The notes under the pieces: generated by a model | What the model saw: only the letters and a program-made list of their open reading frames with translations | Databases searched by the model: none | Told to the model about the DNA's origin: nothing | Origin: a virus | DNA: 64,000 nucleotides | Strand: one strand, 5' to 3' | Virus record (IMG/VR): IMGVR_UViG_3300044542_000416 | Span: 2,022 to 66,021 of that record | Made by a program: the position numbers and the translations under genes | Shown here: piece after piece, positions 1 to 64,000 of the stretch | Layout of the letters: the number at the start of each line of letters is the position of its first letter | Position numbering within the stretch: the first letter of the stretch is position 1

Positions 1-197
1 ACACTATTATCCGCCTCCATTTTCGCAAGAATCTGTGCCCCTGTGAAATCACTTGCCGGAAGTGCAGCATCCGCTTTATCGGCATTGGCTTTCATCTGTG
101 TGTCTATTATGTCGGCATTGTTGTTAAAGTCGTCTATATTATATGTATCTGTGCTCGCTGGTTTTGTTAAATTATAATTTGTTGTGCTATCAGCCAA
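1..197 (-). CDS. Tail fibre protein, N-terminal part (truncated by window edge)
   Basis: Not in ORF track. TTG at 197 gives MADSTTNYNLTKPASTDTYNIDDFNNNADIIDTQMKANADKADAALPASDFTG, closely matching the N-terminus of the prophage 2 fibre (35753-36928). Confidence 0.85.
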   Translation of the reverse strand, partial: MADSTTNYNLTKPASTDTYNIDDFNNNADIIDTQMKANADKADAALPASDFTGAQILAKMEADNS

Positions 198-27415: not shown

Positions 27416-27510
27416 TTTACAAAATTCTGTTTTTGCAGTATAGTTAAATTGGTTTTTTATATTTGCCGCTTTTGGGATTGCCGTCCCTAAGCGGCTGTTT
27501 TTATTTTTTA
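27416..27510 (+). ncRNA. Putative small antisense RNA unit (promoter, hairpin, U-tract), copy 1
   Basis: TTTACA-17-TATAGT, then GCCGCTTTTGGGATTGCCGTCCCTAAGCGGC plus T-tract; 39 bp identical to 60573-60611. Confidence 0.55.
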
Positions 27511-28516: not shown

Positions 28517-29296
28517 TTAACTTGCCTGATCAACTCCATATCTGATACACATATCTTTAACAATTGCTACATACCCTTCAATTAGCTTTTTATCATTTGC
28601 TATGACGTCCAACTTATTGAGCTTGTCTATCTTTGACTTACAAACGCCATTTAAAGACATGGTCTTTTTCATATTTGTAAGTCTTATTGATAAAGCAACC
28701 CCAAAGCGTTCATCCAACAATTTATAGCTCTCTTCTCGAATTACATTAAGATGCTCATAGCCTCCAGCCTTAAGAGCCATCTTGTTGATTAGCTTTGATG
28801 TGTCCTTCCGCCAGTCGTTAGGGTTGAGTGCAACAACATCTTTAATATTGTCAATACGCTTGTTGGTGTCCTCAATAGCCTTCTCCTGTTCTTTTTGAGC
28901 AAGCTGTGTTTTAGCTACACTGTCAAATATCTGCTTGAACATTTGAAGTTCAGGGCTGAGCTGAGAAATATCAAGTCCCGTTTTTATCGTTTGTTCCATG
29001 TCGTGAAAACGGTTTATGTACTTCGCAGTAAATTCGGTACCTTTAATACCAGTGAGTTTGTTTGCTATAAACTCGCAGCCCTTTCGAGTCACAAGGTAGC
29101 ATGGTCTTTCTTGATTATTGGCATCTTTATAAGAGCTTTCTTGGAAAAATTCGCCCAAGTGAATATTCCCTTCGGCTCCCTGTGTTATGTATCTGCGAAT
29201 ATCTTTAAGTAATTCGCTGTGTTGTTTTTCTACCATCTCGGCCACTTCTCGGCTGTCAAGTGTTTGTGCTACTGGTTTTTCTAATAATTGGTTCAT
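28517..29296 (-). CDS. Rha-family antirepressor/regulator
   Basis: LDSREVAEMVEKQHSELLKDIR, KGCEFIANKLTG, FTAKYINRFHDME. Confidence 0.9.
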   Translation of the reverse strand: MNQLLEKPVAQTLDSREVAEMVEKQHSELLKDIRRYITQGAEGNIHLGEFFQESSYKDANNQERPCYLVTRKGCEFIANKLTGIKGTEFTAKYINRFHDMEQTIKTGLDISQLSPELQMFKQIFDSVAKTQLAQKEQEKAIEDTNKRIDNIKDVVALNPNDWRKDTSKLINKMALKAGGYEHLNVIREESYKLLDERFGVALSIRLTNMKKTMSLNGVCKSKIDKLNKLDVIANDKKLIEGYVAIVKDMCIRYGVDQAS

Positions 29297-29311
29297 GTGA
29301 TTCCTCCTTGT

Positions 29312-29485
29312 TTATAAAATTGTCTTTCTGCTCTCCTCGAAGATTTTTAGGTCTTCTTCTCTAATACGGTAGCCATTTCCAATTTTAATAGCTGGCAGTT
29401 TTTTTGATCTTATCCAGCTCCATACAGTTCTTGCTTTAACACCGTATTTTAATGAAATTTCGTTACATGTGTACAGTTTATCCAT
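29312..29485 (-). CDS. Excisionase-like HTH protein (Cro position)
   Basis: YTCNEISLKYGVKARTVWSWIRSKKLPAIKIGNGYRI; first gene of leftward operon. Confidence 0.8.
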   Translation of the reverse strand: MDKLYTCNEISLKYGVKARTVWSWIRSKKLPAIKIGNGYRIREEDLKIFEESRKTIL

Positions 29486-29509
29486 AATTATCACCTCTCT
29501 TTTTGTAGG

Positions 29510-29700
29510 GTTTAATACTTACGTTTACTTACGTAAAGTGATATACTTTTATTTATAAGATTACCACATCAAAAAATAAAAGCATTGCGTATGCAAAAGT
29601 ATTTTTGTTCTGTTTACTTTTGTTGATGTAAGTATAGTGTACTACAGCTTGCGTTATTAGTCAAGCCTTTTTACTCATGCTTTTCGTAAGTAATGCTTTT
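29510..29700. promoter_or_regulatory. Lysis/lysogeny switch of prophage 1
   Basis: Leftward TTGACT-17-TACACT (29664-29636); rightward extended -10 TGATATACT (29539-29547); repeated TACTTACG/CGTAAGTA boxes. Confidence 0.55.
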
Positions 29701-29720
29701 TTGTGAAGGGAGCACAAAAA

Positions 29721-30059
29721 ATGTATGAGATATTTGAGCAGCTTTTACAAAGGCGCGGCATTACTGCATACAAGGTTGCTAAAGATACTGGACTAACACA
29801 AACACTTCTGAGTAATTGGAAAAATGGTAAAAGTATACCAAATACACAAAATCTTAAAAAAATAGCTGATTACTTTGGAGTTACGGTTGACTATTTAATG
29901 ACAGGAGAAGATAAGACGGAAACAAAAAATGACTTCTCAGAATTAGAGGGAGCCTATTTTAGCTTAGCTAAGGAAGCTCAGGAAAGCGGTATCGATCCTG
30001 ATGATATAAGAAAAATAATTGAAATAGTTAGGTCTGTGCGTGATAAAAAGGGGGAGTAA
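29721..30059 (+). CDS. XRE-family immunity repressor (ImmR/CI-like)
   Basis: TAYKVAKDTGL...LSNWKNG...KIADYFGVTVDYL. Confidence 0.92.
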   Translation: MYEIFEQLLQRRGITAYKVAKDTGLTQTLLSNWKNGKSIPNTQNLKKIADYFGVTVDYLMTGEDKTETKNDFSELEGAYFSLAKEAQESGIDPDDIRKIIEIVRSVRDKKGE

Positions 30060-30061
30060 TA

Positions 30062-30718
30062 TTGTCAAGTTACCTTACGAAAGCGGATTTATATAATTAT
30101 ATTGACTTGGTACGTATGAAAAACAATATTCACTTCTCTGTTTATCCTTTAAATGTAATAAAAGATTGCCTACAAATCGGAATTGAGGTTAAAAAAGAAT
30201 CATTTTCTACAAAAGGTCTACGTGGTATAGCTATTAAGGGGTCAGGGAAAGAAAAAGACATAATCGTTTTAAATCCAATAAGAAATCCTGAGGAGCAAAA
30301 TTTCGATTGCGGGCATGAATGTGTTCATTTATTCAAGCATCGAAATGAAAAGGTTACTTCTTTTCATTGTTTTGAAACAGTTTTACCACAGCAAAATAGT
30401 TTTTTAGAATGGCAGGCAAATGAGGGTTCTGCAGAATTGCTGGTACCGTATAAATTTTTTATACCAATGTTTTGTAAATATAGAGGGTATTGTAAAAATG
30501 CTACGGACTATATGGCGTTCAAAAATAAGTTGGCTGAAATCTTTAAAGTGCCCGTTGCTGTTATTACTCTAAGGATAGAAAATCTTAAATACGAAATATA
30601 TCAATACGAAAATGGTATAAGCTTAGATAACATAGAAATAAAATCTAATACACAATTAAAAAGAGAACGTATAAATATTGTATCTTACAATGCTATATAT
30701 GATTTTGTAGGCATTTAA
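30062..30718 (+). CDS. immA: ImmA/IrrE-family metallo-endopeptidase (anti-repressor)
   Basis: HECVH zinc motif, EWQANEGSAELLVP; next to repressor. Confidence 0.9.
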   Translation: MSSYLTKADLYNYIDLVRMKNNIHFSVYPLNVIKDCLQIGIEVKKESFSTKGLRGIAIKGSGKEKDIIVLNPIRNPEEQNFDCGHECVHLFKHRNEKVTSFHCFETVLPQQNSFLEWQANEGSAELLVPYKFFIPMFCKYRGYCKNATDYMAFKNKLAEIFKVPVAVITLRIENLKYEIYQYENGISLDNIEIKSNTQLKRERINIVSYNAIYDFVGI

Positions 30719-30863: not shown

Positions 30864-31922
30864 ATGCCTGTTTATAAGGACGATACTCGAGGCACATGGT
30901 ATACAAGTTTTTATTATACTGACTGGCAAGGTAAAAGGAAGAAAAAGAAAAAAGAGGGATTTGCAAAAAAGAAGGACGCGCAAAAGTTTGAGCGTCAGTT
31001 TATAAGTCAACAAAAAGGTTCTTGCGATATGCTTTTTAAAGATATGGTTGCTCTTTATCTCGCTGACAAAAAGGTAAAGTTAAAAATAACAACCTACCTT
31101 GATAAGGAGTTTATTTTTTTAAATCGTCTTAATCCTGTTTTTGGCGACCGTCAGGTTAGCTCTATTACTTCAAACGATGTTAGATTATGGCATAATAGTT
31201 TACTTGAAAATAATAGCTATAAGCCTACATATTTAAGAAAACTAAATGCGCAGCTTTCAGCACTATTTAATTTTGCAGTTAAATATTATGGCCTACATCA
31301 AAACCCTGTTGCTCTGTGTGAGAATATCGGAAAGGGTACAGCTAATATAATGCAATTCTGGACCGTGGAAGACTTTAAGAAGTTTATGGCCTGTTTAAGA
31401 GATGACAAAGCGCTTAAAATTGCATTTGAAATACTGTTTTGGACTGGCCTGAGATGCGGTGAATTAATGGCCCTCACATGGTCTGATGTTGATATGTCAG
31501 GACACAAAATAAGTATAAATAAAACTCTGGCTCGCATTAAGGGCAAAGACGTTATACAAAGTCCAAAAACGCCAAAAAGTAATCGTCTTATTGGTATTCC
31601 GGAATTTTTATGTAATGATATGCTTAATTACAAAAAAAGCTTATACTGTATTACATCTGCGGATAGGGTTTGTACTGTAAGCAAATATGCTATGTATAGA
31701 GCTATAGCGTCTACAAGTAAGATTGCCGGCATTAAACCAATAAGGATACATGACTTACGACATTCGCATGCCTCCCTTCTCATTGAATTAGGTTTTTCGC
31801 CTTTAGCTATTTCTGAAAGATTAGGGCATGAGAAGATACAAACCACACTTGAAATATATGGTCATTTATATCCAAATAAGCAAGAAGAAATTGTTCAAAA
31901 ATTGCAAAACCTCGGTAAATAG
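30864..31922 (+). CDS. int: Tyrosine integrase with N-terminal arm-binding domain
   Basis: TGLRCGEL, HDLRHSHAS, LGHEKIQTTLEIYGH (R-H-R-H-Y). Confidence 0.97.
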   Translation: MPVYKDDTRGTWYTSFYYTDWQGKRKKKKKEGFAKKKDAQKFERQFISQQKGSCDMLFKDMVALYLADKKVKLKITTYLDKEFIFLNRLNPVFGDRQVSSITSNDVRLWHNSLLENNSYKPTYLRKLNAQLSALFNFAVKYYGLHQNPVALCENIGKGTANIMQFWTVEDFKKFMACLRDDKALKIAFEILFWTGLRCGELMALTWSDVDMSGHKISINKTLARIKGKDVIQSPKTPKSNRLIGIPEFLCNDMLNYKKSLYCITSADRVCTVSKYAMYRAIASTSKIAGIKPIRIHDLRHSHASLLIELGFSPLAISERLGHEKIQTTLEIYGHLYPNKQEEIVQKLQNLGK

Positions 31923-32126
31923 TACGATTTTAGTACACACAAACAAAAACAAGCCCCAGAACCATTGGTTTTGGGGCATTTCTTGTAAATTACAATTACT
32001 TAAGTGTTACCGATAGAATGTTTAACCTATTGATTTTCATTGATTTTCATTGATTTTATTAAACAGATTATTTGTATTTTGACGTTTAAAAAGGCGTTTA
32101 AAAAAATAATAGTACGGTTTTAGTAC
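31918..32126. other. attP-like recombination region (arm repeats, core, 10-bp tandem repeats)
   Basis: AATAGTACG(A/G)TTTTAGTAC at 31918-31936 and 32108-32126; candidate core TTACTTAAGTGTTAC 31996-32010; ATTGATTTTC x3 at 32029-32058. Confidence 0.75.
31945..31982. terminator. Terminator hairpin between integrase and att core
   Basis: GCCCCAGAACC-ATT-GGTTTTGGGGC with flanking A/T tracts. Confidence 0.7.
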
Positions 32127-32205
32127 GCTTATTTATAACGGTCAGTGTGTTAGGGGGCCTCTTTATTTGGCCCTAAAATTATTTAAAAATATTTCCATTA
32201 TTCTC

Positions 32206-32234
32206 TTGACATAGCACCGTATCGGTACTATAAT
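32206..32234 (+). promoter_or_regulatory. Consensus sigma-A promoter with palindromic operator, copy 1
   Basis: TTGACA-17-TATAAT; ATAGCACCG-TAT-CGGTACTAT at 32211-32231. Confidence 0.9.
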
Positions 32235-32286
32235 GTATTTAGAAGTTAAGAGAGAGCAAACTAGATAATAAAAGGAGCGATAAAAA

Positions 32287-32904
32287 ATGAAAACAATTAA
32301 AGAAGTCGAAAATGACGTATTAGGTATGGAAATTACAGAAAGCACAGCAGAGAAAAAAATTATTAGCGCTTTTAAAGGCTATAAATATTACGGAGAAACA
32401 GAAGCATATGTAAAGAAAAGTGCCAATGGAGATTGGGATTATGAAGCCTCTATAAACGAAGCAGGCGCCCCATCCTTATTTATAAGGGCTGAAAATGGTG
32501 TAATAACAGACACCTGTGTAGATTATCCTTGCGACTACGAAGAAAACAAAGAGGGGGCAGACATCGGAGAATTAGCTAATAATCTAAAAAATTTTATCGA
32601 CAAAAAGTATACAGGGGATGAAACACAACTTTTATATTTTGACAACGATATTATAAATCAAGACGGCATGCAAGAAACCGACTCTATTTTTGGATATTCC
32701 CTGTATGAGATGCTTAACCCGAGTCCATATTGGGATGGCTTTGGATACATGGTCAATTCCGACGAAGGCGTTAATGTATATTTTTCCAATATAAAAGTTG
32801 ATAATAAAATTATTGACTTTGAAAATAAGGAAGATGTAGCTTTCTTAGAAAATGCTGATGTAGACGATATTTATGTTACTATTAGTAAAACAGAAACCTT
32901 TTAA
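32287..32904 (+). CDS. Acidic hypothetical protein (candidate anti-defence/Acr)
   Basis: AAGGAG RBS; 205 aa, about 43 D/E vs 17 K/R by my count; function inferred from context only. Confidence 0.8.
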   Translation: MKTIKEVENDVLGMEITESTAEKKIISAFKGYKYYGETEAYVKKSANGDWDYEASINEAGAPSLFIRAENGVITDTCVDYPCDYEENKEGADIGELANNLKNFIDKKYTGDETQLLYFDNDIINQDGMQETDSIFGYSLYEMLNPSPYWDGFGYMVNSDEGVNVYFSNIKVDNKIIDFENKEDVAFLENADVDDIYVTISKTETF

Positions 32905-32954
32905 GATATTTGTAAGCTGTCCTATCGGCTACGGGGAGAAAGGGAGGCGGTAAT

Positions 32955-33122
32955 TTGACTATTAAAGAGCTTAGAGCCTTAACCGGCCTGAGCCAAGCAA
33001 AGTTTGGCGAAAAATATAAAATACCTCGCCGGACTATACAAAATTGGGAAGCAGATGTTAATACACCACCCCAATACGTTGTCGACTTGCTTGAAAGAGC
33101 AGTAAAAGAAGATACAAAATAA
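32955..33122 (+). CDS. Small XRE-type HTH regulator (Aca-like), 55 aa
   Basis: Missing from ORF track; GGGAGG RBS, TTG start, MTIKELRALTGLSQAKFGEKYKIPRRTIQNWEADVNTPPQYVVDLLERAVKEDTK. Confidence 0.88.
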   Translation: MTIKELRALTGLSQAKFGEKYKIPRRTIQNWEADVNTPPQYVVDLLERAVKEDTK

Positions 33123-33149
33123 AGGGCTTTTAGCTCTTTATTTTTTTTT
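33121..33149 (+). terminator. Intrinsic terminator after HTH gene
   Basis: AAAGGGCT-TTT-AGCTCTTT followed by T-run. Confidence 0.65.
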
Positions 33150-33168
33150 AAATATTTCTAATAGTCTA

Positions 33169-33197
33169 TTGACATAGCACCGATACGGTGCTATAAT
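33169..33197 (+). promoter_or_regulatory. Consensus sigma-A promoter with perfect palindromic operator, copy 2
   Basis: TTGACA-17-TATAAT; ATAGCACCG-ATA-CGGTGCTAT at 33174-33194. Confidence 0.9.
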
Positions 33198-33243
33198 GTA
33201 TTTAGAAGTTAAGAGAGAGGTAAACAACAAAGGAGAGATTAAA

Positions 33244-33645
33244 ATGACAAATATTAAAACTTTTGATGATGCTGTAAAAATAATGAAAGATTTCGGATTT
33301 GAATATGATACAGATAACAACGGAGAATTTACAATGTATCTTGAACTTAAATATAAAGATTTTAAAAATGATGATTTCCAAAGTGCTATTGGTCATGGAC
33401 GTGTAGCAATAACAGATAAAAAATATAATGCAAATAACAAAACTATAACTTTTAAAGCTCATATATGGGGAATACGAACTTTTATAGGAGAAGAACACTT
33501 TAATAAACTTTTGAGCAAAGGTCTTACCGGAGAGCAGGCTCTTGCAAAGATGATGCAAACTGTCCCTGTAAAAGAAACAGATATTTTAAGAATAAACAGA
33601 GCAAAAGCAGTTGAACTTCTTAAAGCTTTTAAAGCAAATATGTAA
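33244..33645 (+). CDS. Hypothetical protein, 133 aa (candidate anti-defence)
   Basis: AAGGAGAG RBS before ATG 33244; the ORF-track start lies inside the promoter. Confidence 0.8.
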   Translation: MTNIKTFDDAVKIMKDFGFEYDTDNNGEFTMYLELKYKDFKNDDFQSAIGHGRVAITDKKYNANNKTITFKAHIWGIRTFIGEEHFNKLLSKGLTGEQALAKMMQTVPVKETDILRINRAKAVELLKAFKANM

Positions 33646-33680
33646 TAAAGAAGGCCACAATTAAGCGGCCTTTTTCTTTA
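33646..33680. terminator. Bidirectional terminator between accessory gene and endolysin
   Basis: AAGGCC-ACAATTAAGC-GGCCTT with A/T tails. Confidence 0.7.
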
Positions 33681-34505
33681 TCTATTCATTTTGTCAAACA
33701 ACCTTTTAAGGAATACAACCATTTGCTCTCTTGTAGTAAAATTCTTGTACTGTTTATTGCCTTTTTCGTCACCGGCAATAATGCCGTTACTTTCGGCCCA
33801 TTCTCTGGCCTCTTTTGACCAGTCAGCCGGTTCCTCAGTTTTTAAACTTGATAAATAATTATTCATCATTTCATTGAATTGCGCTTGCGTCATCATATCG
33901 TCGTCATCCTCTTTTTCTTCAAAATCTTTATAGCAAATATCTAAATCAAAATTTCCATTGCTGCCGGATATATTCCCCTTTTCTGTATACTGCCACATTG
34001 TATCTTTTATACTGTCTGCGTTTCCCCATTGTGCGTTCCAAAAATAGCAGTTAAATGCGGACCTGTTTATAACCCTTGTAAGAACGCTCTTACTTGCGTA
34101 TATTCCGCATTTTAGCCCCTGCGACTGTATGTAATCCACAAATGTCTTGCAAAGTTTATTTATCAGAGACTTATCAGAATACAGGCTTATTCCATTTTTG
34201 CTTTTATACTCGTCTGCATCTTCCATGTCAAACCATACAGGCATGTCCAATTGTTTATCTTTAACAAGGCTATAAACGTATTTAGCCTCTTTTAGTGCGT
34301 CGTTTGCACATAAAGCATAGCTGTAATGATAAACGCCGACTTTAAGACCGGCCGCTTTTGCCTTTTTGTAATTTTCTTCAAACTTGTTATCTGCTGTATC
34401 TGTACCGTATGAGCTTCTTATAATAACAAACTTAAGCCCTGCCGCCTTAGCGGCGGCAAAGTCTACGGTACCATTGTGTTTACTTACATCAAAACCTTTA
34501 TACAT
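33678..34505 (-). CDS. Endolysin, GH25 muramidase with C-terminal SLH-like domain
   Basis: GFDVSKHNG, VGVYHYSY, WFDME, WQYT, DLD; WSKEAREWAESNGIIAG...TTREQMVVFL. Confidence 0.93.
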   Translation of the reverse strand: MYKGFDVSKHNGTVDFAAAKAAGLKFVIIRSSYGTDTADNKFEENYKKAKAAGLKVGVYHYSYALCANDALKEAKYVYSLVKDKQLDMPVWFDMEDADEYKSKNGISLYSDKSLINKLCKTFVDYIQSQGLKCGIYASKSVLTRVINRSAFNCYFWNAQWGNADSIKDTMWQYTEKGNISGSNGNFDLDICYKDFEEKEDDDDMMTQAQFNEMMNNYLSSLKTEEPADWSKEAREWAESNGIIAGDEKGNKQYKNFTTREQMVVFLKRLFDKMNR

Positions 34506-34516
34506 TTGTATCACCT

Positions 34517-35752: not shown

Positions 35753-36928
35753 TTAATAATATTCAACAACTTCAAAACCAACAACTGTACTGTTTGCATT
35801 GTTACTATTTCTATAGGCTGTAATAGTTGTTGAATTTGTAAGTTCAACTCTTGCAAATTGGTCCGCATACTCTGGAACAACATTTCCCAAATAAGATATA
35901 ACCGATTTGCTTGTATCTACAGAAGAAATAGTCGCTGTAGCTGAATACACTCCAGCAAGACTTATTGTACCTCTTTGTATGCTCTTAATCACACTTATCT
36001 CCCCTCCTGTTAAAAGCGATTGAACCTGTGCTGCCACATTGTCGCCAGTAATTACAGGCTGCCATTCTCCCCATTTTGTACTATATACTCTCACGGCTAT
36101 AAGGTTACTGTAACTATGTGCCACCTGTACTCGACGTGTACTCGCTGACTGCACGCTGTAAAAATATTGTGTAACGAACACAAATGTATCATTAGGCATT
36201 AATGCATGAAGCTCTGGATTAACTGTGCTTGTAATAGCCGCAACTACAAGCTCATATGTTGTTGTATCCAAATTTGTATTTCCTCCAGGATCATATGCTG
36301 CAACTTTGCGAAAAGCTCCTAAATTATCTCTTGCTGCATTGGCTGCATTTGCTCCGGTACCTCCATTTTTCACCGGGATTACGTCTACATCCGTATAAAC
36401 TTTCTGCCAACTGCTCCAAGTCCCGGTATTGCCATCGTAGTTTCGTGTAGCCATTATGTTATTTAGGTAACCATGTGCCAATTGCATTCTGCTTCGGCTT
36501 GAGTCTGTTGCCAAATAAAAAATTTGTATTATATAAGCATAGCTTCCTCCAAGCAAAGCATATAGTTCAGCATGATTTGTAGAAGAAAGAGAAACAAGCA
36601 TAACACCGTCTGTAGAAGTATCCGCATAATCCACTGCTGTACTTGCTGCAGTTAATTTGCTTAAACCCAAAAGGTTTGCAAGCCCGTCTTTAGCCGTATT
36701 TGCCTCTGTTCCACCGCTTTTCACTGGAAGTACGCTATTATCTGCCGCCAATTTAGTAAGTACATTTGCACCTGTAAAATCACTTGCCGGAAGCGCTGCG
36801 TCTGCTTTACCAGCATTGGCTTTCATTTGTGTGTCTATTATGTCGGCATTGTTGTTGAAGTCATCTACATCATAAAAATCATCCTGAGCCGGTTTCTTTA
36901 AATTGTAATTCGTTGTATTTGTTGCCAT
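35753..36928 (-). CDS. Tail fibre protein with two knob-like repeats
   Basis: TTNYNLKKP N-terminus; two PVKxGGT.ANxA repeats, each followed by a W-x-x-W-ended domain; IKSIQRG tip. Confidence 0.88.
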   Translation of the reverse strand: MATNTTNYNLKKPAQDDFYDVDDFNNNADIIDTQMKANAGKADAALPASDFTGANVLTKLAADNSVLPVKSGGTEANTAKDGLANLLGLSKLTAASTAVDYADTSTDGVMLVSLSSTNHAELYALLGGSYAYIIQIFYLATDSSRSRMQLAHGYLNNIMATRNYDGNTGTWSSWQKVYTDVDVIPVKNGGTGANAANAARDNLGAFRKVAAYDPGGNTNLDTTTYELVVAAITSTVNPELHALMPNDTFVFVTQYFYSVQSASTRRVQVAHSYSNLIAVRVYSTKWGEWQPVITGDNVAAQVQSLLTGGEISVIKSIQRGTISLAGVYSATATISSVDTSKSVISYLGNVVPEYADQFARVELTNSTTITAYRNSNNANSTVVGFEVVEYY

Positions 36929-57924: not shown

Positions 57925-58779
57925 CTACATTTCCTCACGCACTTTTTTTTCAATTGCCGCATAATCATACTGCCTTTGGGAATAGCTGTTAAAACTGTTT
58001 TTCTTAGCTTTTTGTTCAGCTGTACCGGATAAACCCGCAGATTTTGAATAATTCCCCTCAAGGATTTTTATTGCGTTTGCCGGTTTTAATATCCAGTCAA
58101 AATCAGCCCTCCACCCTCGGTCATTGCTGCCGGTCAAAAAAGCACTTTGCTGTGCAGTATCCAAAAGTGTTTTCAGGTCCTCTTTGCTGTGTTTTTTCAA
58201 AAAGCTCCTTAAAGCCGTTTTGCGTCTTTCCGTTATTTCGCGCACAGCAGGAAAAGCAGTGCACTGAGTATTAAAATACTGCCGTATACGCTCATAATCC
58301 ATTTTCGGCCTCTCGCTTTTGGGCGTATCATCGTCGGTTTCCGGCGGTAATTCCTTTGTATTCCTTATATCGTTTTGTTTAGTTTTGTTTTGTTTACTAA
58401 TGGTATCATTTGCAGTATCACTTGCAGTATTGTTTGCAGTATCATCTGTAGTATCATTTGTAGTATCATTTGCAGTATCATCTGTAGTATGAAAATCACA
58501 CTGCAGCAGTGAATTTATGTGATATATGGCCGCTTGGTTTCCCCGCTTTTGAAAATCTATGAGCCCTTTGTCCTTCAGCATATTCCTTGCTCTTAAAACA
58601 GCCTGCTTGTTCAGGCCGGTTTTGACTTCGAGCACCACAACAGCTACCGTAAAGTTATCCTGCCACTTCGATTTATTCGCTATGTGCATTAATGCATGCC
58701 ACAGGGCAATTCCCGACGTAGGTAGTTGGTTCACTTCGAGCCAGTCATAAAATGCTTTAATCTCCAGCAAGTAATTCAT
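57925..58779 (-). CDS. Replication initiator / replisome organiser
   Basis: N-terminal HTH (IALWHALM...ARNMLKDKGLI), iteron-coded linker, WRADFDWILKP...KILEGNY. Confidence 0.88.
   Translation of the reverse strand: MNYLLEIKAFYDWLEVNQLPTSGIALWHALMHIANKSKWQDNFTVAVVVLEVKTGLNKQAVLRARNMLKDKGLIDFQKRGNQAAIYHINSLLQCDFHTTDDTANDTTNDTTDDTANNTASDTANDTISKQNKTKQNDIRNTKELPPETDDDTPKSERPKMDYERIRQYFNTQCTAFPAVREITERRKTALRSFLKKHSKEDLKTLLDTAQQSAFLTGSNDRGWRADFDWILKPANAIKILEGNYSKSAGLSGTAEQKAKKNSFNSYSQRQYDYAAIEKKVREEM
58403..58490. repeat. Seven tandem 12-bp iterons (GTATCATTTGCA consensus), putative origin of prophage 2
   Basis: Direct tandem repeats inside the initiator gene next to an AT-rich tract. Confidence 0.8.
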
Positions 58780-60525: not shown

Positions 60526-60543
60526 TTTATTTTTTCCTCCTTT

Positions 60544-60613
60544 GTGCTATACTAAATTTGAATGTTTTACTGTGCCGCTTTTGGGATTGCCGTCCCTAAG
60601 CGGCTGTTTTTTA
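60544..60613 (+). ncRNA. Putative small antisense RNA unit, copy 2
   Basis: Extended -10 TGCTATACT, then the hairpin identical to 27464-27502 plus T-tract. Confidence 0.55.
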
Positions 60614-63394: not shown

Positions 63395-63519
63395 GTCGCT
63401 ATTTTAGCTACTAAATAAATTATATTCTTTGTTTTAGCGAATGTCAATATCATTTTGAAAAATATTTTCGTCAAATTAGCGAAAAAAACATTGACTTGCT
63501 TTGCAATGCAATTTATAAT
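63395..63519. promoter_or_regulatory. Divergent cro/cI switch with three 17-bp operators
   Basis: Leftward TTGACA-17-TATAAT (63447-63419); rightward TTGACT-17-TATAAT (63491-63519); operators at 63395, 63425, 63467 approximating TTCGCTAWWWTAGCGAA. Confidence 0.8.
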
Positions 63520-63550: not shown

Positions 63551-64000
63551 ATGACAAAAGGTGATATCGCAAAACTTTTAAAGGATAGCAGGATTAAAGC
63601 AGGTTTTGAAGCTAAAGAAGTAGCTGAAAAACTAATTGAATTAGGCGCTATCAAAAGCGTTAAATCATTTTATAATTGGGAGAGTGGAAGAACTCAGCCT
63701 GACGCAGACACATTTATGTACCTTTGCAACCTTTACAAGATAAAGAATGTCCTCGAAACATTCGGCTATAAAGGTTTTGATGACGTGCAAGAAGTATCCA
63801 ACGCCTACGAAAAAGCGGACATAAAGACTAAAAATATAGTTCGTTACGCTCTTGGTTTGCCAACATTAGATGAAGAAGAACCAAAAGTTAAACTTGCAGC
63901 ACGAGGCGGATATATAGAGCTGACTGAAGATGAAGCAAAAGACTTAGCTGAAAGCGCTAAAAAAGCTCCTGATGAATCAGGAAATAAAGATTTGTTCTAA
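63551..64000 (+). CDS. CI-like XRE repressor of prophage 2
   Basis: LKDSRIKAG...YNWESGRTQPDADTF; AARGG motif; divergent from cro. Confidence 0.88.
   Translation: MTKGDIAKLLKDSRIKAGFEAKEVAEKLIELGAIKSVKSFYNWESGRTQPDADTFMYLCNLYKIKNVLETFGYKGFDDVQEVSNAYEKADIKTKNIVRYALGLPTLDEEEPKVKLAARGGYIELTEDEAKDLAESAKKAPDESGNKDLF

What the first reader, a model, noticed from the sequence alone, without database searches (positions are those of the whole stretch)
32160..33680. Candidate anti-defence (acr-aca-like) regulon: two unknown genes under twin operator-promoters plus a hidden HTH regulator
Seen: between the att site and the endolysin, on the opposite strand to the lytic genes, two units start from perfect TTGACA-17-TATAAT promoters (32206, 33169). 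Their spacers carry the same 21-bp palindrome (ATAGCACCG-N3-CGGT(A/G)CTAT), and the 28 bp from the -10 box onward are identical (TATAATGTATTTAGAAGTTAAGAGAGAG). Unit 1 is an acidic 205-aa unknown followed by a 55-aa HTH gene (32955-33122, TTG start, absent from the ORF track) and a terminator. Unit 2 is a 133-aa unknown. Established: acr-aca operons have a strong promoter with an inverted repeat, small often acidic Acr genes and a trailing HTH Aca autorepressor, and in Listeria prophages they lie between lysin and att. Inference: the HTH represses both promoters, giving a burst of expression on DNA entry, and the two unknowns, which I do not recognise, are candidate inhibitors of CRISPR-Cas, RM or another defence.
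Basis: partly seen in the sequence, partly recalled or inferred. Interest (0 to 1): 0.85.

Follow-up and report, generated by a model that had tools for sequence, protein, structure and literature searches.

The report
Self-repressed phage accessory gene cassettes
At one end of a prophage from a Clostridia-type bacterium, two copies of a very strong promoter with a built-in repressor site drive two unknown genes and a small DNA-binding protein; relatives of that protein sit in the same layout beside known inhibitors of bacterial immunity in other phages, so the two unknown genes are good but untested candidates for new inhibitors.

Summary
Two perfect TTGACA-17-TATAAT promoters (32206, 33169) each carry the same 21-bp palindrome centred in the spacer. 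They lie inside a duplicated 91-nt promoter-operator-leader cassette. Unit 1 is orf205 (pI 4.1), a 55-aa XRE HTH and a terminator. Unit 2 is orf133 and a terminator.

The HTH family is common in Clostridia phages (at least 491 IMG/VR hits). In 60 of 104 fetched loci a near-consensus promoter with a spacer-centred palindrome lies upstream. The palindrome differs between HTH subgroups, and the genes between promoter and HTH are swapped (37 clusters).

Known anti-defence genes occupy the cargo slot in some relatives:
- an AcrIC5 homologue (2 loci)
- an orphan Cas5b homologue, AcrIB3-like (6 loci)
- ArdC (1 locus)

The locus is therefore an acr-aca-type self-repressed regulon. orf205 and orf133 match no known family or fold, so their anti-defence role rests on association only. 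orf205 is a fusion of two independent cargo modules.

Evidence against: the HTH most resembles antitoxin HTHs, and distant relatives sit beside HipA, MazEF and Fic.

The scan noted similar cassettes on other DNA (e1-3497693, e1-2918474), though a sequence look-up found none with this HTH. Verdict: new member of a known kind, interest 0.55.

The parts
32166..32256 (+). Cassette copy 1 (promoter, operator, leader). The -35 box is at 32206-32211, the -10 box at 32229-32234. The 21-bp palindrome at 32211-32231 has one arm mismatch. An unstructured purine-rich leader follows.
32287..32904 (+). orf205, a very acidic two-module protein. The N-domain (1-79) belongs to a family of acidic 77-84-aa phage proteins. 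The C-part (about 100-156) has a stand-alone homologue under the same cassette in L113.
32955..33122 (+). 55-aa XRE-type HTH with a TTG start. It is the proposed dimeric autorepressor of both cassettes (Aca-like).
33116..33144 (+). Intrinsic terminator of unit 1. It overlaps the HTH stop codon.
33129..33219 (+). Cassette copy 2. The -35 box is at 33169-33174, the -10 box at 33192-33197. The palindrome at 33174-33194 is perfect. The leader is identical to copy 1 for 28 nt from the -10 box.
33244..33645 (+). orf133, a basic orphan protein (pI 9.0). Its only match is a weak one to phrog_22039 (E 1.6e-4).
33651..33672 (.). Hairpin terminator shared with the convergent endolysin gene.
33678..34514 (-). 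GH25-type endolysin of the prophage that carries the module (a flank, not part of the regulon).
31918..32130 (.). att-like region between the integrase of the left prophage and the module (a flank). The repeats were seen by eye only.

Best explanation
This is an acr-aca-type, self-repressed accessory regulon at the lysin/att end of a temperate Clostridia phage.

Proposed mechanism:
1. A portable promoter-operator-leader cassette of about 90 nt is present twice.
2. When phage DNA enters a cell that has no HTH protein, both consensus sigma-70 promoters fire. They produce orf205, the HTH and orf133.
3. The 55-aa XRE HTH then binds as a dimer to the palindrome, which fills the 17-bp spacer between the -35 and -10 boxes. 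This blocks RNA polymerase at both promoters.
4. The result is a burst of expression followed by low steady expression in the lysogen.

Unit 2 has no regulator of its own and is controlled in trans by the HTH of unit 1. The cargo genes (orf205, a fusion of two acidic modules, and the basic orphan orf133) are most likely inhibitors of host defence such as CRISPR-Cas or restriction.

Shown: the anatomy, its conservation, and its association with anti-defence genes in relatives. Inferred: DNA binding, repression, timing and cargo function.
For: Anatomy: see the observation check.

Family size: 47 homologues at 53-98% identity. In IMG/VR, 491 of 556 candidate stretches encode a relative. Twenty-four loci lie in Clostridia genomes or MAGs.

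Conserved operator-in-promoter: I counted promoters with at most 2 mismatches and a palindrome centred in the spacer.
- 69 sites on the HTH strand, from 2.5 kb upstream to about 0.57 kb downstream of the HTH start (307 kb scanned).
- 5 sites on the opposite strand of the same intervals.
- 9 (+) and 15 (-) sites in the remaining 597 kb.
- Present in 54 of 80 viral loci, 9 of 24 genome loci, and 36 of 63 distinct HTH sequences.

The palindrome sequence differs between HTH subgroups while its position is kept.

Cargo is swapped: 91 ORFs between promoter and HTH in 60 of 104 loci fall into 37 clusters.

Known anti-defence genes in the cargo slot:
- L060:4739-4942 matches PF22147 AcrIC5 at 35.2 bits against a cut-off of 27. 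It lies directly between a palindrome promoter and the HTH, followed by a terminator. A second, shorter copy is in L056.
- An orphan Cas5b homologue lies in the HTH operon of L048-L053. A Cas5 homologue, AcrIB3, is a proven type I-B inhibitor (preprint 10.1101/2023.06.24.545427, passages read).
- ArdC in L004, which is 71% identical in its HTH: PF08401 plus PF18818, and phrog_7245 at 2e-48.

The same operator drives other cargo in L113, L115 and L116. Twin cassettes also occur in L037 and L056, with two more copies about 4.9 kb apart in L054.

Dimer: complex prediction gave a score of 0.76 against a best control of 0.01. That mark was reached by 20 of 30 proteins solved as pairs and by 1 of 23 solved as single chains. 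The three runs agreed in 100% of contacts and the partner's pLDDT was at least 94. XRE dimers are already solved, so this pass may come from memory.

orf205 N-domain relatives are very acidic (pI 4.05-4.2). They sit next to lysins together with small RHH regulators. In L112 such a gene is again driven by a promoter with a spacer palindrome.
Against: - No experiment supports the reading, and no RNA data were found.
- orf205 and orf133 match no Acr, anti-restriction or other named family and no solved or viral fold.
- Anti-defence cargo was recognised in only 9 of the 104 loci (2 AcrIC5-like, 6 Cas5b-like, 1 ArdC), plus one probable DarB-like neighbour. The rest of the cargo is unknown.
- The HTH profile's best solved matches are Atu1735 and the antitoxin HigA-2. 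Its best NCBIfam match is the MqsA antitoxin family, below cut-off.
- More distant genome relatives (46-60% identity) sit beside HipA, MazE/MazF, Fic and an ABC/AbiEii-like ATPase.
- My scan found no operator-promoter in 44 of 104 loci.
- orf133 is basic, unlike most Acr proteins.
Confidence: 0.6

Rival explanations
1. The regulatory circuit is the same (HTH autorepressor on two operator promoters), but the cargo serves the lysogen. Under this reading the two unknown genes act in superinfection exclusion, anti-phage defence or another lysogenic-conversion function, not in counter-defence.
For: - The lysin-to-att position is the usual site for prophage morons. In L111 the same region also holds a lipoprotein gene.
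- An autorepressed promoter still gives steady low expression in a lysogen.
- The cargo has no match to any anti-defence family.
Against: - Neither protein matches any PADLOC defence model.
- In the phage relatives, the recognisable cargo in the operon proper is anti-defence: AcrIC5, a Cas5b homologue and ArdC.
- PADLOC hits among the 66 neighbour proteins came as a tally only. Only the Cas5b hit was pinned to a locus (L052). The Cas12f-type hits fit the TnpB transposase of L098, and the DrmD hits fit the helicase of L092. I did not pin PDC-S04, mad3 or Csx1.
Confidence: 0.2
2. The locus is a three-part addiction or toxin-antitoxin-like module. Basic orf133 would be a toxin, acidic orf205 its neutraliser, and the HTH a separate regulator, as in omega-epsilon-zeta systems.
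For: - The HTH is closest to antitoxin HTH domains: HigA-2 at 4.6e-6 and the MqsA family at 1.7e-5.
- Distant relatives neighbour HipA, MazEF and Fic.
- The two cargo proteins have opposite charges and identical promoters.
- The orf205 N-domain is fused to RHH or HTH domains in P0053 and P0057, an antitoxin-like layout.
- It has a weak fold resemblance to HigB (Z 3.5, not significant).
Against: - Neither cargo protein matches a toxin family.
- The HTH is a bare 55-aa domain with no neutralising extension.
- The MqsA match is far below cut-off (24.6 against 61.8 bits).
- The cargo is exchanged freely under the same operator, which a co-adapted toxin-antitoxin pair would not tolerate.
- orf205 and orf133 are in separate transcription units.
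Confidence: 0.1
3. The palindrome is not the site of this HTH. It would instead be bound by another phage or host factor, or would simply be a hairpin-forming sequence, and the HTH would regulate something else.
For: - No binding data exist.
- One metagenome contig (L114) has the same palindrome in a promoter in front of a tRNA-like sequence, with no HTH found on the 11.7 kb held.
Against: - The palindrome is 10- to 14-fold enriched upstream of the HTH and on its strand.
- It changes with the HTH subgroup.
- It is found with the HTH in phage lineages that are otherwise unrelated.
Confidence: 0.05

Closest known systems
acr-aca operons with an Aca autorepressor (Aca1 and Aca2 paradigms). Guilt-by-association is described in PMC10732046 and in the AcaFinder preprint 10.1101/2022.08.29.505781 (passages read).
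   Same: - A strong promoter carrying an inverted repeat.
- Small, variable, often acidic cargo.
- A trailing small HTH gene.
- The same regulator family paired with different cargo in different elements.
   Different: - This HTH could not be tested against Aca1-13 or AcaFinder's 36 predicted families, because no Aca models were available and the supplements are closed.
- Here a single palindrome sits exactly in the spacer.
- The whole cassette is duplicated to drive a second unit that has no regulator.
- The cargo is unrelated to any known Acr.
Listeria prophage acrIIA loci with the AcrIIA1 N-terminal HTH autorepressor (recalled, not read here).
   Same: - Position between the lysin and the attachment site, on a temperate Firmicute phage.
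- A palindromic operator in the acr promoter.
   Different: - The regulator here is a separate bare HTH, not a bifunctional Acr.
- No sequence relation was tested.
AcrIC5 (Leon et al. 2021, PMC7913775, passages read; Pfam PF22147).
   Same: A homologue occupies the cargo slot in front of this HTH family in L060 and L056. AcaFinder reports that AcrIC5 co-localises with 10 new Aca families.
   Different: The window carries no AcrIC5 homologue. orf205 and orf133 do not match PF22147.
AcrIB3, a viral Cas5 homologue that poisons type I-B Cascade (preprint 10.1101/2023.06.24.545427, passages read).
   Same: An orphan Cas5b homologue lies in the same operon as this HTH family in L048-L053.
   Different: It is found in relatives only, not in the window. 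Its activity is untested, and the profile match covers only the two ends of the Cas5b model.
HTH antitoxins of the HigA-2 / MqsA type (PDB 5jaa; TIGR03830).
   Same: These are the most similar HTH domains by sequence profile. They also use palindromic operators in their own promoters.
   Different: The window HTH has no toxin-binding extension and no toxin-family partner. The scores are below the family cut-off.

Membership tests
XRE-type HTH (Pfam HTH_3, PF01381) | Match to the family model above its gathering score | tested here: met
   32.7 bits against a cut-off of 23, residues 3-49
acr-aca operon | A small HTH gene in the same transcription unit as small cargo genes | tested here: met
   Promoter, orf205, HTH and terminator, with ribosome-binding sites and short gaps
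acr-aca operon | An inverted repeat overlapping the promoter of the operon | tested here: met
   A 21-bp palindrome fills the 17-bp spacer at both promoters. The same arrangement occurs in 60 of 104 related loci.
acr-aca operon | The regulator family is found next to known Acr genes in other elements (guilt by association) | tested here: met
   An AcrIC5 homologue above the Pfam cut-off in L060, with a second, shorter copy in L056 found by phmmer with the L060 protein. An orphan Cas5b homologue in the L048-L053 operons.
acr-aca operon | The HTH binds the inverted repeat and represses the promoter | not testable with these tools
   Indirect evidence only: co-variation and enrichment and a predicted symmetric dimer.
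acr-aca operon | The cargo inhibits a CRISPR-Cas system | not testable with these tools
   No homology to any Acr in Pfam or PHROGs. The host genome is not held, because the record is a 66-kb provirus.
Named Aca families (Aca1-Aca13, AcaFinder families) | Sequence match to a named Aca family | not tested
   No Aca model library was available. None of the 22 PDB matches at E<=0.01 is named Aca. The AcaFinder supplements are closed.
Type II toxin-antitoxin module with an HTH antitoxin (HigBA, MqsRA, HipBA) | The partner gene belongs to a toxin family | tested here: not met
   orf205 and orf133 have no match in Pfam, NCBIfam or PADLOC.
Type II toxin-antitoxin module with an HTH antitoxin (HigBA, MqsRA, HipBA) | The antitoxin matches the family model above its cut-off | tested here: not met
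   TIGR03830 (MqsA) scored 24.6 bits against a cut-off of 61.8. TIGR03070 scored 18 against 71.65.
PepSY / BamE-like small alpha-beta domains (for the orf205 N-domain) | Significant structural or sequence match | tested here: inconclusive
   Atlas rows have TM 0.27-0.34. The best VIA Z is 4.1 and Foldseek gives no match at E<=1e-3. There is no Pfam match.

The most novel reading that the evidence does not exclude
orf205 and orf133 are inhibitors of bacterial defence systems with folds not represented among solved structures. orf205 would be a fusion of two acidic modules that also exist as separate genes.

The promoter-operator-leader cassette of about 90 nt is itself a portable plug. Through it, unrelated Clostridia phages exchange counter-defence genes under one small repressor. 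That would make this HTH family a direct handle on dozens of unknown anti-defence families (37 cargo clusters in the 60 loci analysed).
Probability: 0.35. Interest if true: 0.75.

Novelty: new member of a known kind. Interest (0 to 1): 0.55.

Why it matters
Few anti-defence genes are known for phages of gut and anaerobic-digester Clostridia. This small HTH, together with its operator-in-promoter signature, marks a slot where such phages keep exchangeable early genes. In relatives that slot already holds an AcrIC5 homologue, a Cas5 mimic and ArdC. If the association holds, the window's two orphan proteins and the roughly three dozen other cargo clusters form a ready list of candidates for new inhibitors of CRISPR-Cas or restriction. 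The compact promoter-operator-repressor set could also serve as a tight burst-type expression switch for Clostridia.

Tried and rejected
Searches that gave nothing useful:
- The word-index homologue search found only the proteins themselves for orf205 and orf133.
- The ESM Atlas gave no usable feature hit for orf205, only low-TM structural rows, and scores of 0.82 or below for orf133.
- In the phage collection, blastn of 31900-33700 and tblastn of orf133 found nothing. For orf205 the only hit was the N-domain in Fusobacterium phage phiRTG5.
- The phmmer hit P0050 is a 1908-aa protein of tandem repeats that matched in 12 stretches. I set it aside as repeat- and composition-driven.
- The single-sequence AlphaFold model of orf133 had a mean pLDDT of 50 and was not searched.
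- The orf205 model is confident only for residues 1-79. It gave no Foldseek PDB or BFVD match at E<=1e-3 and a best VIA Z of 4.1.
- PDB sequence searches with orf205 and orf133 found nothing below E 0.01.
- Among the fetched loci, orf133 matched only its own copies, and orf205 additionally matched only the phiRTG5 protein in L001.
- The exact operator pattern found no match in viral contigs.
- No RNA holder was listed. Contigs of four runs covered only short pieces, mainly the HTH gene and the 3' end of orf133.
- The L072 180-aa protein looked to me like a Cys-cluster plus AP2 (CasPR-like) protein, but Pfam gave no AP2 match, so I dropped that reading.
- CasPRs are CapR plus AP2 proteins, not XRE HTH proteins, so this HTH is not a CasPR.
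- A PDB sequence search with the Cas5b-like protein found nothing.

Limits of my scripts:
- mapped only 57 of the 80 viral loci. The greedy ORF choice or my motif missed the HTH in the others.
- One search dropped 23 more loci because of a motif that was too narrow.
- For alignment A3 I used 59 of its 72 cluster representatives. I left out 13 ORFs of 41-81 aa that looked spurious or tiny, and added 7 chosen by hand.
- redo the counts on all 104 loci using the match coordinates.
- The PHROG DarB-like hit is a tally. I assign it to L092:25-3951, the only protein of that size, without a per-member table.
- One of the two HipA hits was pinned to L103. The other was not pinned.
Full report
**1. What is in the sequence**

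The region lies between two tandem prophages.
- On the left, a tyrosine integrase (30864-31922, +) ends a prophage whose other genes run leftward.
- On the right, a GH25-type endolysin (33678-34514, -) is the last gene of a second prophage. Its holin, tail, head and packaging genes run on the minus strand up to about 55 kb, and its early region reaches the window end.

The module has the following parts.
- Two 12-of-12 matches to TTGACA-17-TATAAT, at 32206 and 33169. The 64-kb window holds only three such matches, against 0.02 expected.
- In both, the spacer is filled by ATAGCACCG-N3-CGGTRCTAT. This occurs nowhere else in the window, even with 3 mismatches, and nowhere else in the 66-kb virus record.
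- The two promoters are part of a 91-nt direct repeat at 82% identity, 32166-32256 and 33129-33219. Apart from the loop and one arm base of the palindrome, the repeat is identical from the -35 box to 22 nt past the -10 box.
- The leaders are purine-rich and unstructured (0 kcal/mol).
- Unit 1 encodes orf205 and the 55-aa HTH and ends in a hairpin terminator. Unit 2 encodes orf133 and ends in a hairpin shared with the lysin gene.

**2. The three proteins**

*The HTH.* It is a bare XRE domain (PF01381, 32.7 bits against a cut-off of 23). Its TTG start gives MTIKE, which is the conserved N-terminus of the family. A profile of 47 homologues finds Atu1735, a Staphylococcus regulator and the antitoxin HigA-2 as the nearest solved proteins. 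NCBIfam's best match is the MqsA antitoxin family, far below its cut-off. A two-copy model gives a symmetric dimer through residues 21-23 and 40-52. The score is 0.76 against a best control of 0.01. That mark was reached by 20 of 30 proteins solved as pairs and 1 of 23 solved as single chains. The runs agree in 100% of contacts and the pLDDT is at least 94. XRE dimers are already solved, so this pass may reflect likeness only.

*orf205.* It has pI 4.07 and net charge -26. It matches no family and has no full-length homologue.
- An exhaustive phmmer search shows that residues 1-77 match stand-alone proteins of 77-80 aa (five proteins, E 3e-7 to 6.5e-4). It also shows three longer proteins in which the domain follows another region. 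By my reading of their sequences, not tested, these regions are an excisionase-type HTH in P0053, a ribbon-helix-helix in P0057 and an unassigned region in P0055.
- These relatives are very acidic, with pI 4.05-4.2 for the stand-alone ones.
- With them as an alignment, AlphaFold models residues 1-79 at pLDDT 93-98 as two helices packed on a four-stranded sheet. The rest stays below 50 for most residues.
- No solved or viral structure matches: Foldseek gives nothing at E<=1e-3 and the best VIA Z is 4.1.
- Residues 100-156 are 47% identical (E 1e-8 in a small database) to the start of a separate gene in metagenome contig L113. That gene sits directly behind a 92%-identical copy of the unit-2 cassette. 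orf205 is therefore a fusion of two modules that also exist as independent cargo.

*orf133.* It has pI 9.0. Its only match is a weak one to phrog_22039 (E 1.6e-4). It has no homologues, and its single-sequence model is poor.

**3. The HTH family and its surroundings**

The family is large.
- 47 proteins in the word-index search.
- 491 confirmed stretches in IMG/VR, of which the best 80 were fetched.
- 24 loci in genomes or MAGs named as Clostridia, Lachnospiraceae, Pseudobutyrivibrio, Eubacterium, Ruminococcus and others.

I scanned all 104 loci for promoters with at most two mismatches whose spacer holds a centred inverted repeat.
- 69 such sites lie on the HTH strand, from 2.5 kb upstream to about 0.57 kb downstream of the HTH start.
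- 5 lie on the opposite strand of the same intervals.
- 24 lie in the remaining 597 kb.
- 54 of 80 viral loci, 9 of 24 genome loci and 36 of 63 distinct HTH sequences have one.

The palindrome keeps its place but changes sequence between HTH subgroups. That is the pattern expected of a repressor and its operator evolving together. Relatedness among loci inflates the raw counts: most viral loci come from one phage lineage and one sample.

Between the operator promoter and the HTH, 60 loci hold 91 ORFs in 37 clusters, mostly of 44-200 aa. Twin cassettes occur in L037 and L056, and L054 holds two copies about 4.9 kb apart. In L037 and L056 the repeat again runs from just upstream of the -35 box to about 20 nt past the -10 box.

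The window's own operator recurs in metagenome contigs with different cargo.
- L113 carries the orf205 C-module homologue.
- L115 carries genes of 72, 94 and 185 aa, followed by a 151-aa protein ending in this HTH.
- L116 carries a copy of L115's 94-aa gene directly behind the operator.

**4. What the cargo is in relatives**

Most cargo has no Pfam or PHROG match. The recognisable genes in phage operons are counter-defence genes.
- L060:4739-4942 (67 aa) matches Pfam AcrIC5 above the gathering score. It lies in a palindrome promoter, AcrIC5-like gene, HTH, terminator unit that mirrors unit 1 of the window. L056 has a shorter copy behind its second cassette.
- In L048-L053 the operon continues past the HTH with two small acidic ORFs and a 229-aa orphan Cas5b homologue. 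PADLOC gave 4e-23 in the tally. The search of three of the records placed it at the expected coordinates and matched only the two ends of the model. A Listeria Cas5 homologue, AcrIB3, inhibits type I-B CRISPR by entering Cascade (preprint 10.1101/2023.06.24.545427, passages read).
- L004, the closest viral relative (71%), carries ArdC inside the operon.
- L092 has a 1308-aa SNF2/ResIII protein just upstream. It is probably the DarB-like hit.

AcrIC5 homologues are known in Firmicutes (PMC7913775). AcaFinder reports AcrIC5 next to 10 newly predicted Aca families. I could not check whether this HTH is one of them, because the supplements are closed.

**5. Evidence pointing the other way**

- Among the genome loci, which are more distant (46-60% identity, many with a loop insertion or a C-terminal extension), neighbours include HipA directly upstream of an extended HTH (L103), MazE/MazF (L091), Fic (L094), an ABC/AbiEii-like ATPase, RadC, an LPD29 protein and a TnpB. 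Part of the wider family therefore probably works as antitoxins or other regulators.
- In 44 of 104 loci my scan finds no operator promoter.
- The two window proteins have no tie of their own to any defence or counter-defence family.

**6. orf205 N-domain contexts**

Two viral loci with stand-alone N-domain genes repeat the theme with another type of regulator.
- In L111 the gene lies between an integrase region and a convergent lysin. It is followed by a 142-aa protein whose C-terminus I read as ribbon-helix-helix.
- In L112 a TTGACA-17-TACAAT promoter with a spacer palindrome drives the N-domain gene, a 111-aa gene and a 54-aa RHH-like gene next to an amidase. The RHH assignments are by eye.
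- In Fusobacterium phage phiRTG5 a 160-aa protein matches the N-domain profile at 2e-22.

**7. Reading**

The regulatory half is well supported by comparison, at about 0.8. It consists of the HTH dimer on a spacer-centred operator, autorepression of unit 1, and trans-repression of unit 2. The anti-defence role of the two cargo genes rests on position, on the variability of the slot, on the acidity of orf205, and on the known counter-defence genes in the same slot in relatives. I put that at about 0.5-0.6.

Rivals:
- Lysogen-serving cargo (0.2).
- A toxin-antitoxin-like triad (0.1).
- An operator bound by something else (0.05).

**8. Novelty**

This is a new member of a known kind, the acr-aca-type locus. 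The particular points are the duplicated portable cassette, the fusion nature of orf205, and an HTH family that marks many unknown cargo families in Clostridia phages.

The scan has noted similar self-repressed cassettes on other genomes (e1-3497693, e1-2918474).

Noticed in passing
L052:5207-6333 (also L048-L053): Downstream of the HTH, in the same operon, lie two small acidic ORFs (76 and 64 aa) and a 229-aa orphan Cas5b homologue whose start overlaps the preceding stop. This is a candidate AcrIB3-like Cascade-poisoning anti-CRISPR in gut phages.
   Followed up: partly
L060:4665-5200; L056:4666-4874: A compact unit of palindrome promoter, AcrIC5 homologue (67 aa), HTH and terminator. The L056 copy of the AcrIC5-like gene is shorter.
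   Followed up: partly
L113:1-1899: In this metagenome contig, bases 1-1530 are 99% identical to window 28701-30229, the immunity region of the left prophage. The contig breaks off inside the ImmA-like gene and continues with the unit-2-type cassette and an orf205 C-module homologue. It is either a real recombinant, which would mean the cassette moves between phages, or an assembly chimera.
   Followed up: partly
L114:1722-1800: The same palindrome sits inside a perfect promoter directly in front of a tRNA-like sequence in an unrelated phage-like contig. No HTH of this family was found on the 11.7 kb held. One match of this length in so large a collection could be chance.
   Followed up: no
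L011:2939-3673; L056:3785-4555; L115 (151-aa ORF, 1081-1542 on the stored strand): These proteins join an unknown N-terminal domain to a C-terminal copy of this HTH. Several genome loci (L085, L088-L090, L097, L102, L103) have the HTH followed by a C-terminal extension. The layouts resemble fused regulator-cargo proteins.
   Followed up: no
window 1-143 and 36732-36874: A 143-nt stretch at 84% identity is shared between the two prophages, inside the tail-fibre-region gene of the right one.
   Followed up: no
window 27432-27502 and 60541-60611: A 71-nt repeat at 82% identity, with an identical GC-rich hairpin, lies in the early regions of both prophages.
   Followed up: no
window 58403-58498: A tandem array of a 12-nt unit (six overlapping 36-nt copies) lies inside a minus-strand ORF.
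   Followed up: no
window 63419-63447 (-): This is the third perfect TTGACA-17-TATAAT promoter of the window. It has no palindrome of the module's type and faces the early genes of the right prophage, next to the + strand ORF at 63551.
   Followed up: no
L112:2030-2970: A stand-alone orf205-N-domain gene is driven by a TTGACA-17-TACAAT promoter with its own spacer palindrome. It is followed by a 111-aa gene and a 54-aa RHH-like gene next to an amidase. The design is the same but the regulator type differs.
   Followed up: partly
L072:78-620: A 180-aa protein directly upstream of the HTH has a cysteine cluster and, by eye, an AP2-like C-terminus (a CasPR-like layout). Pfam did not confirm AP2.
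   Followed up: partly
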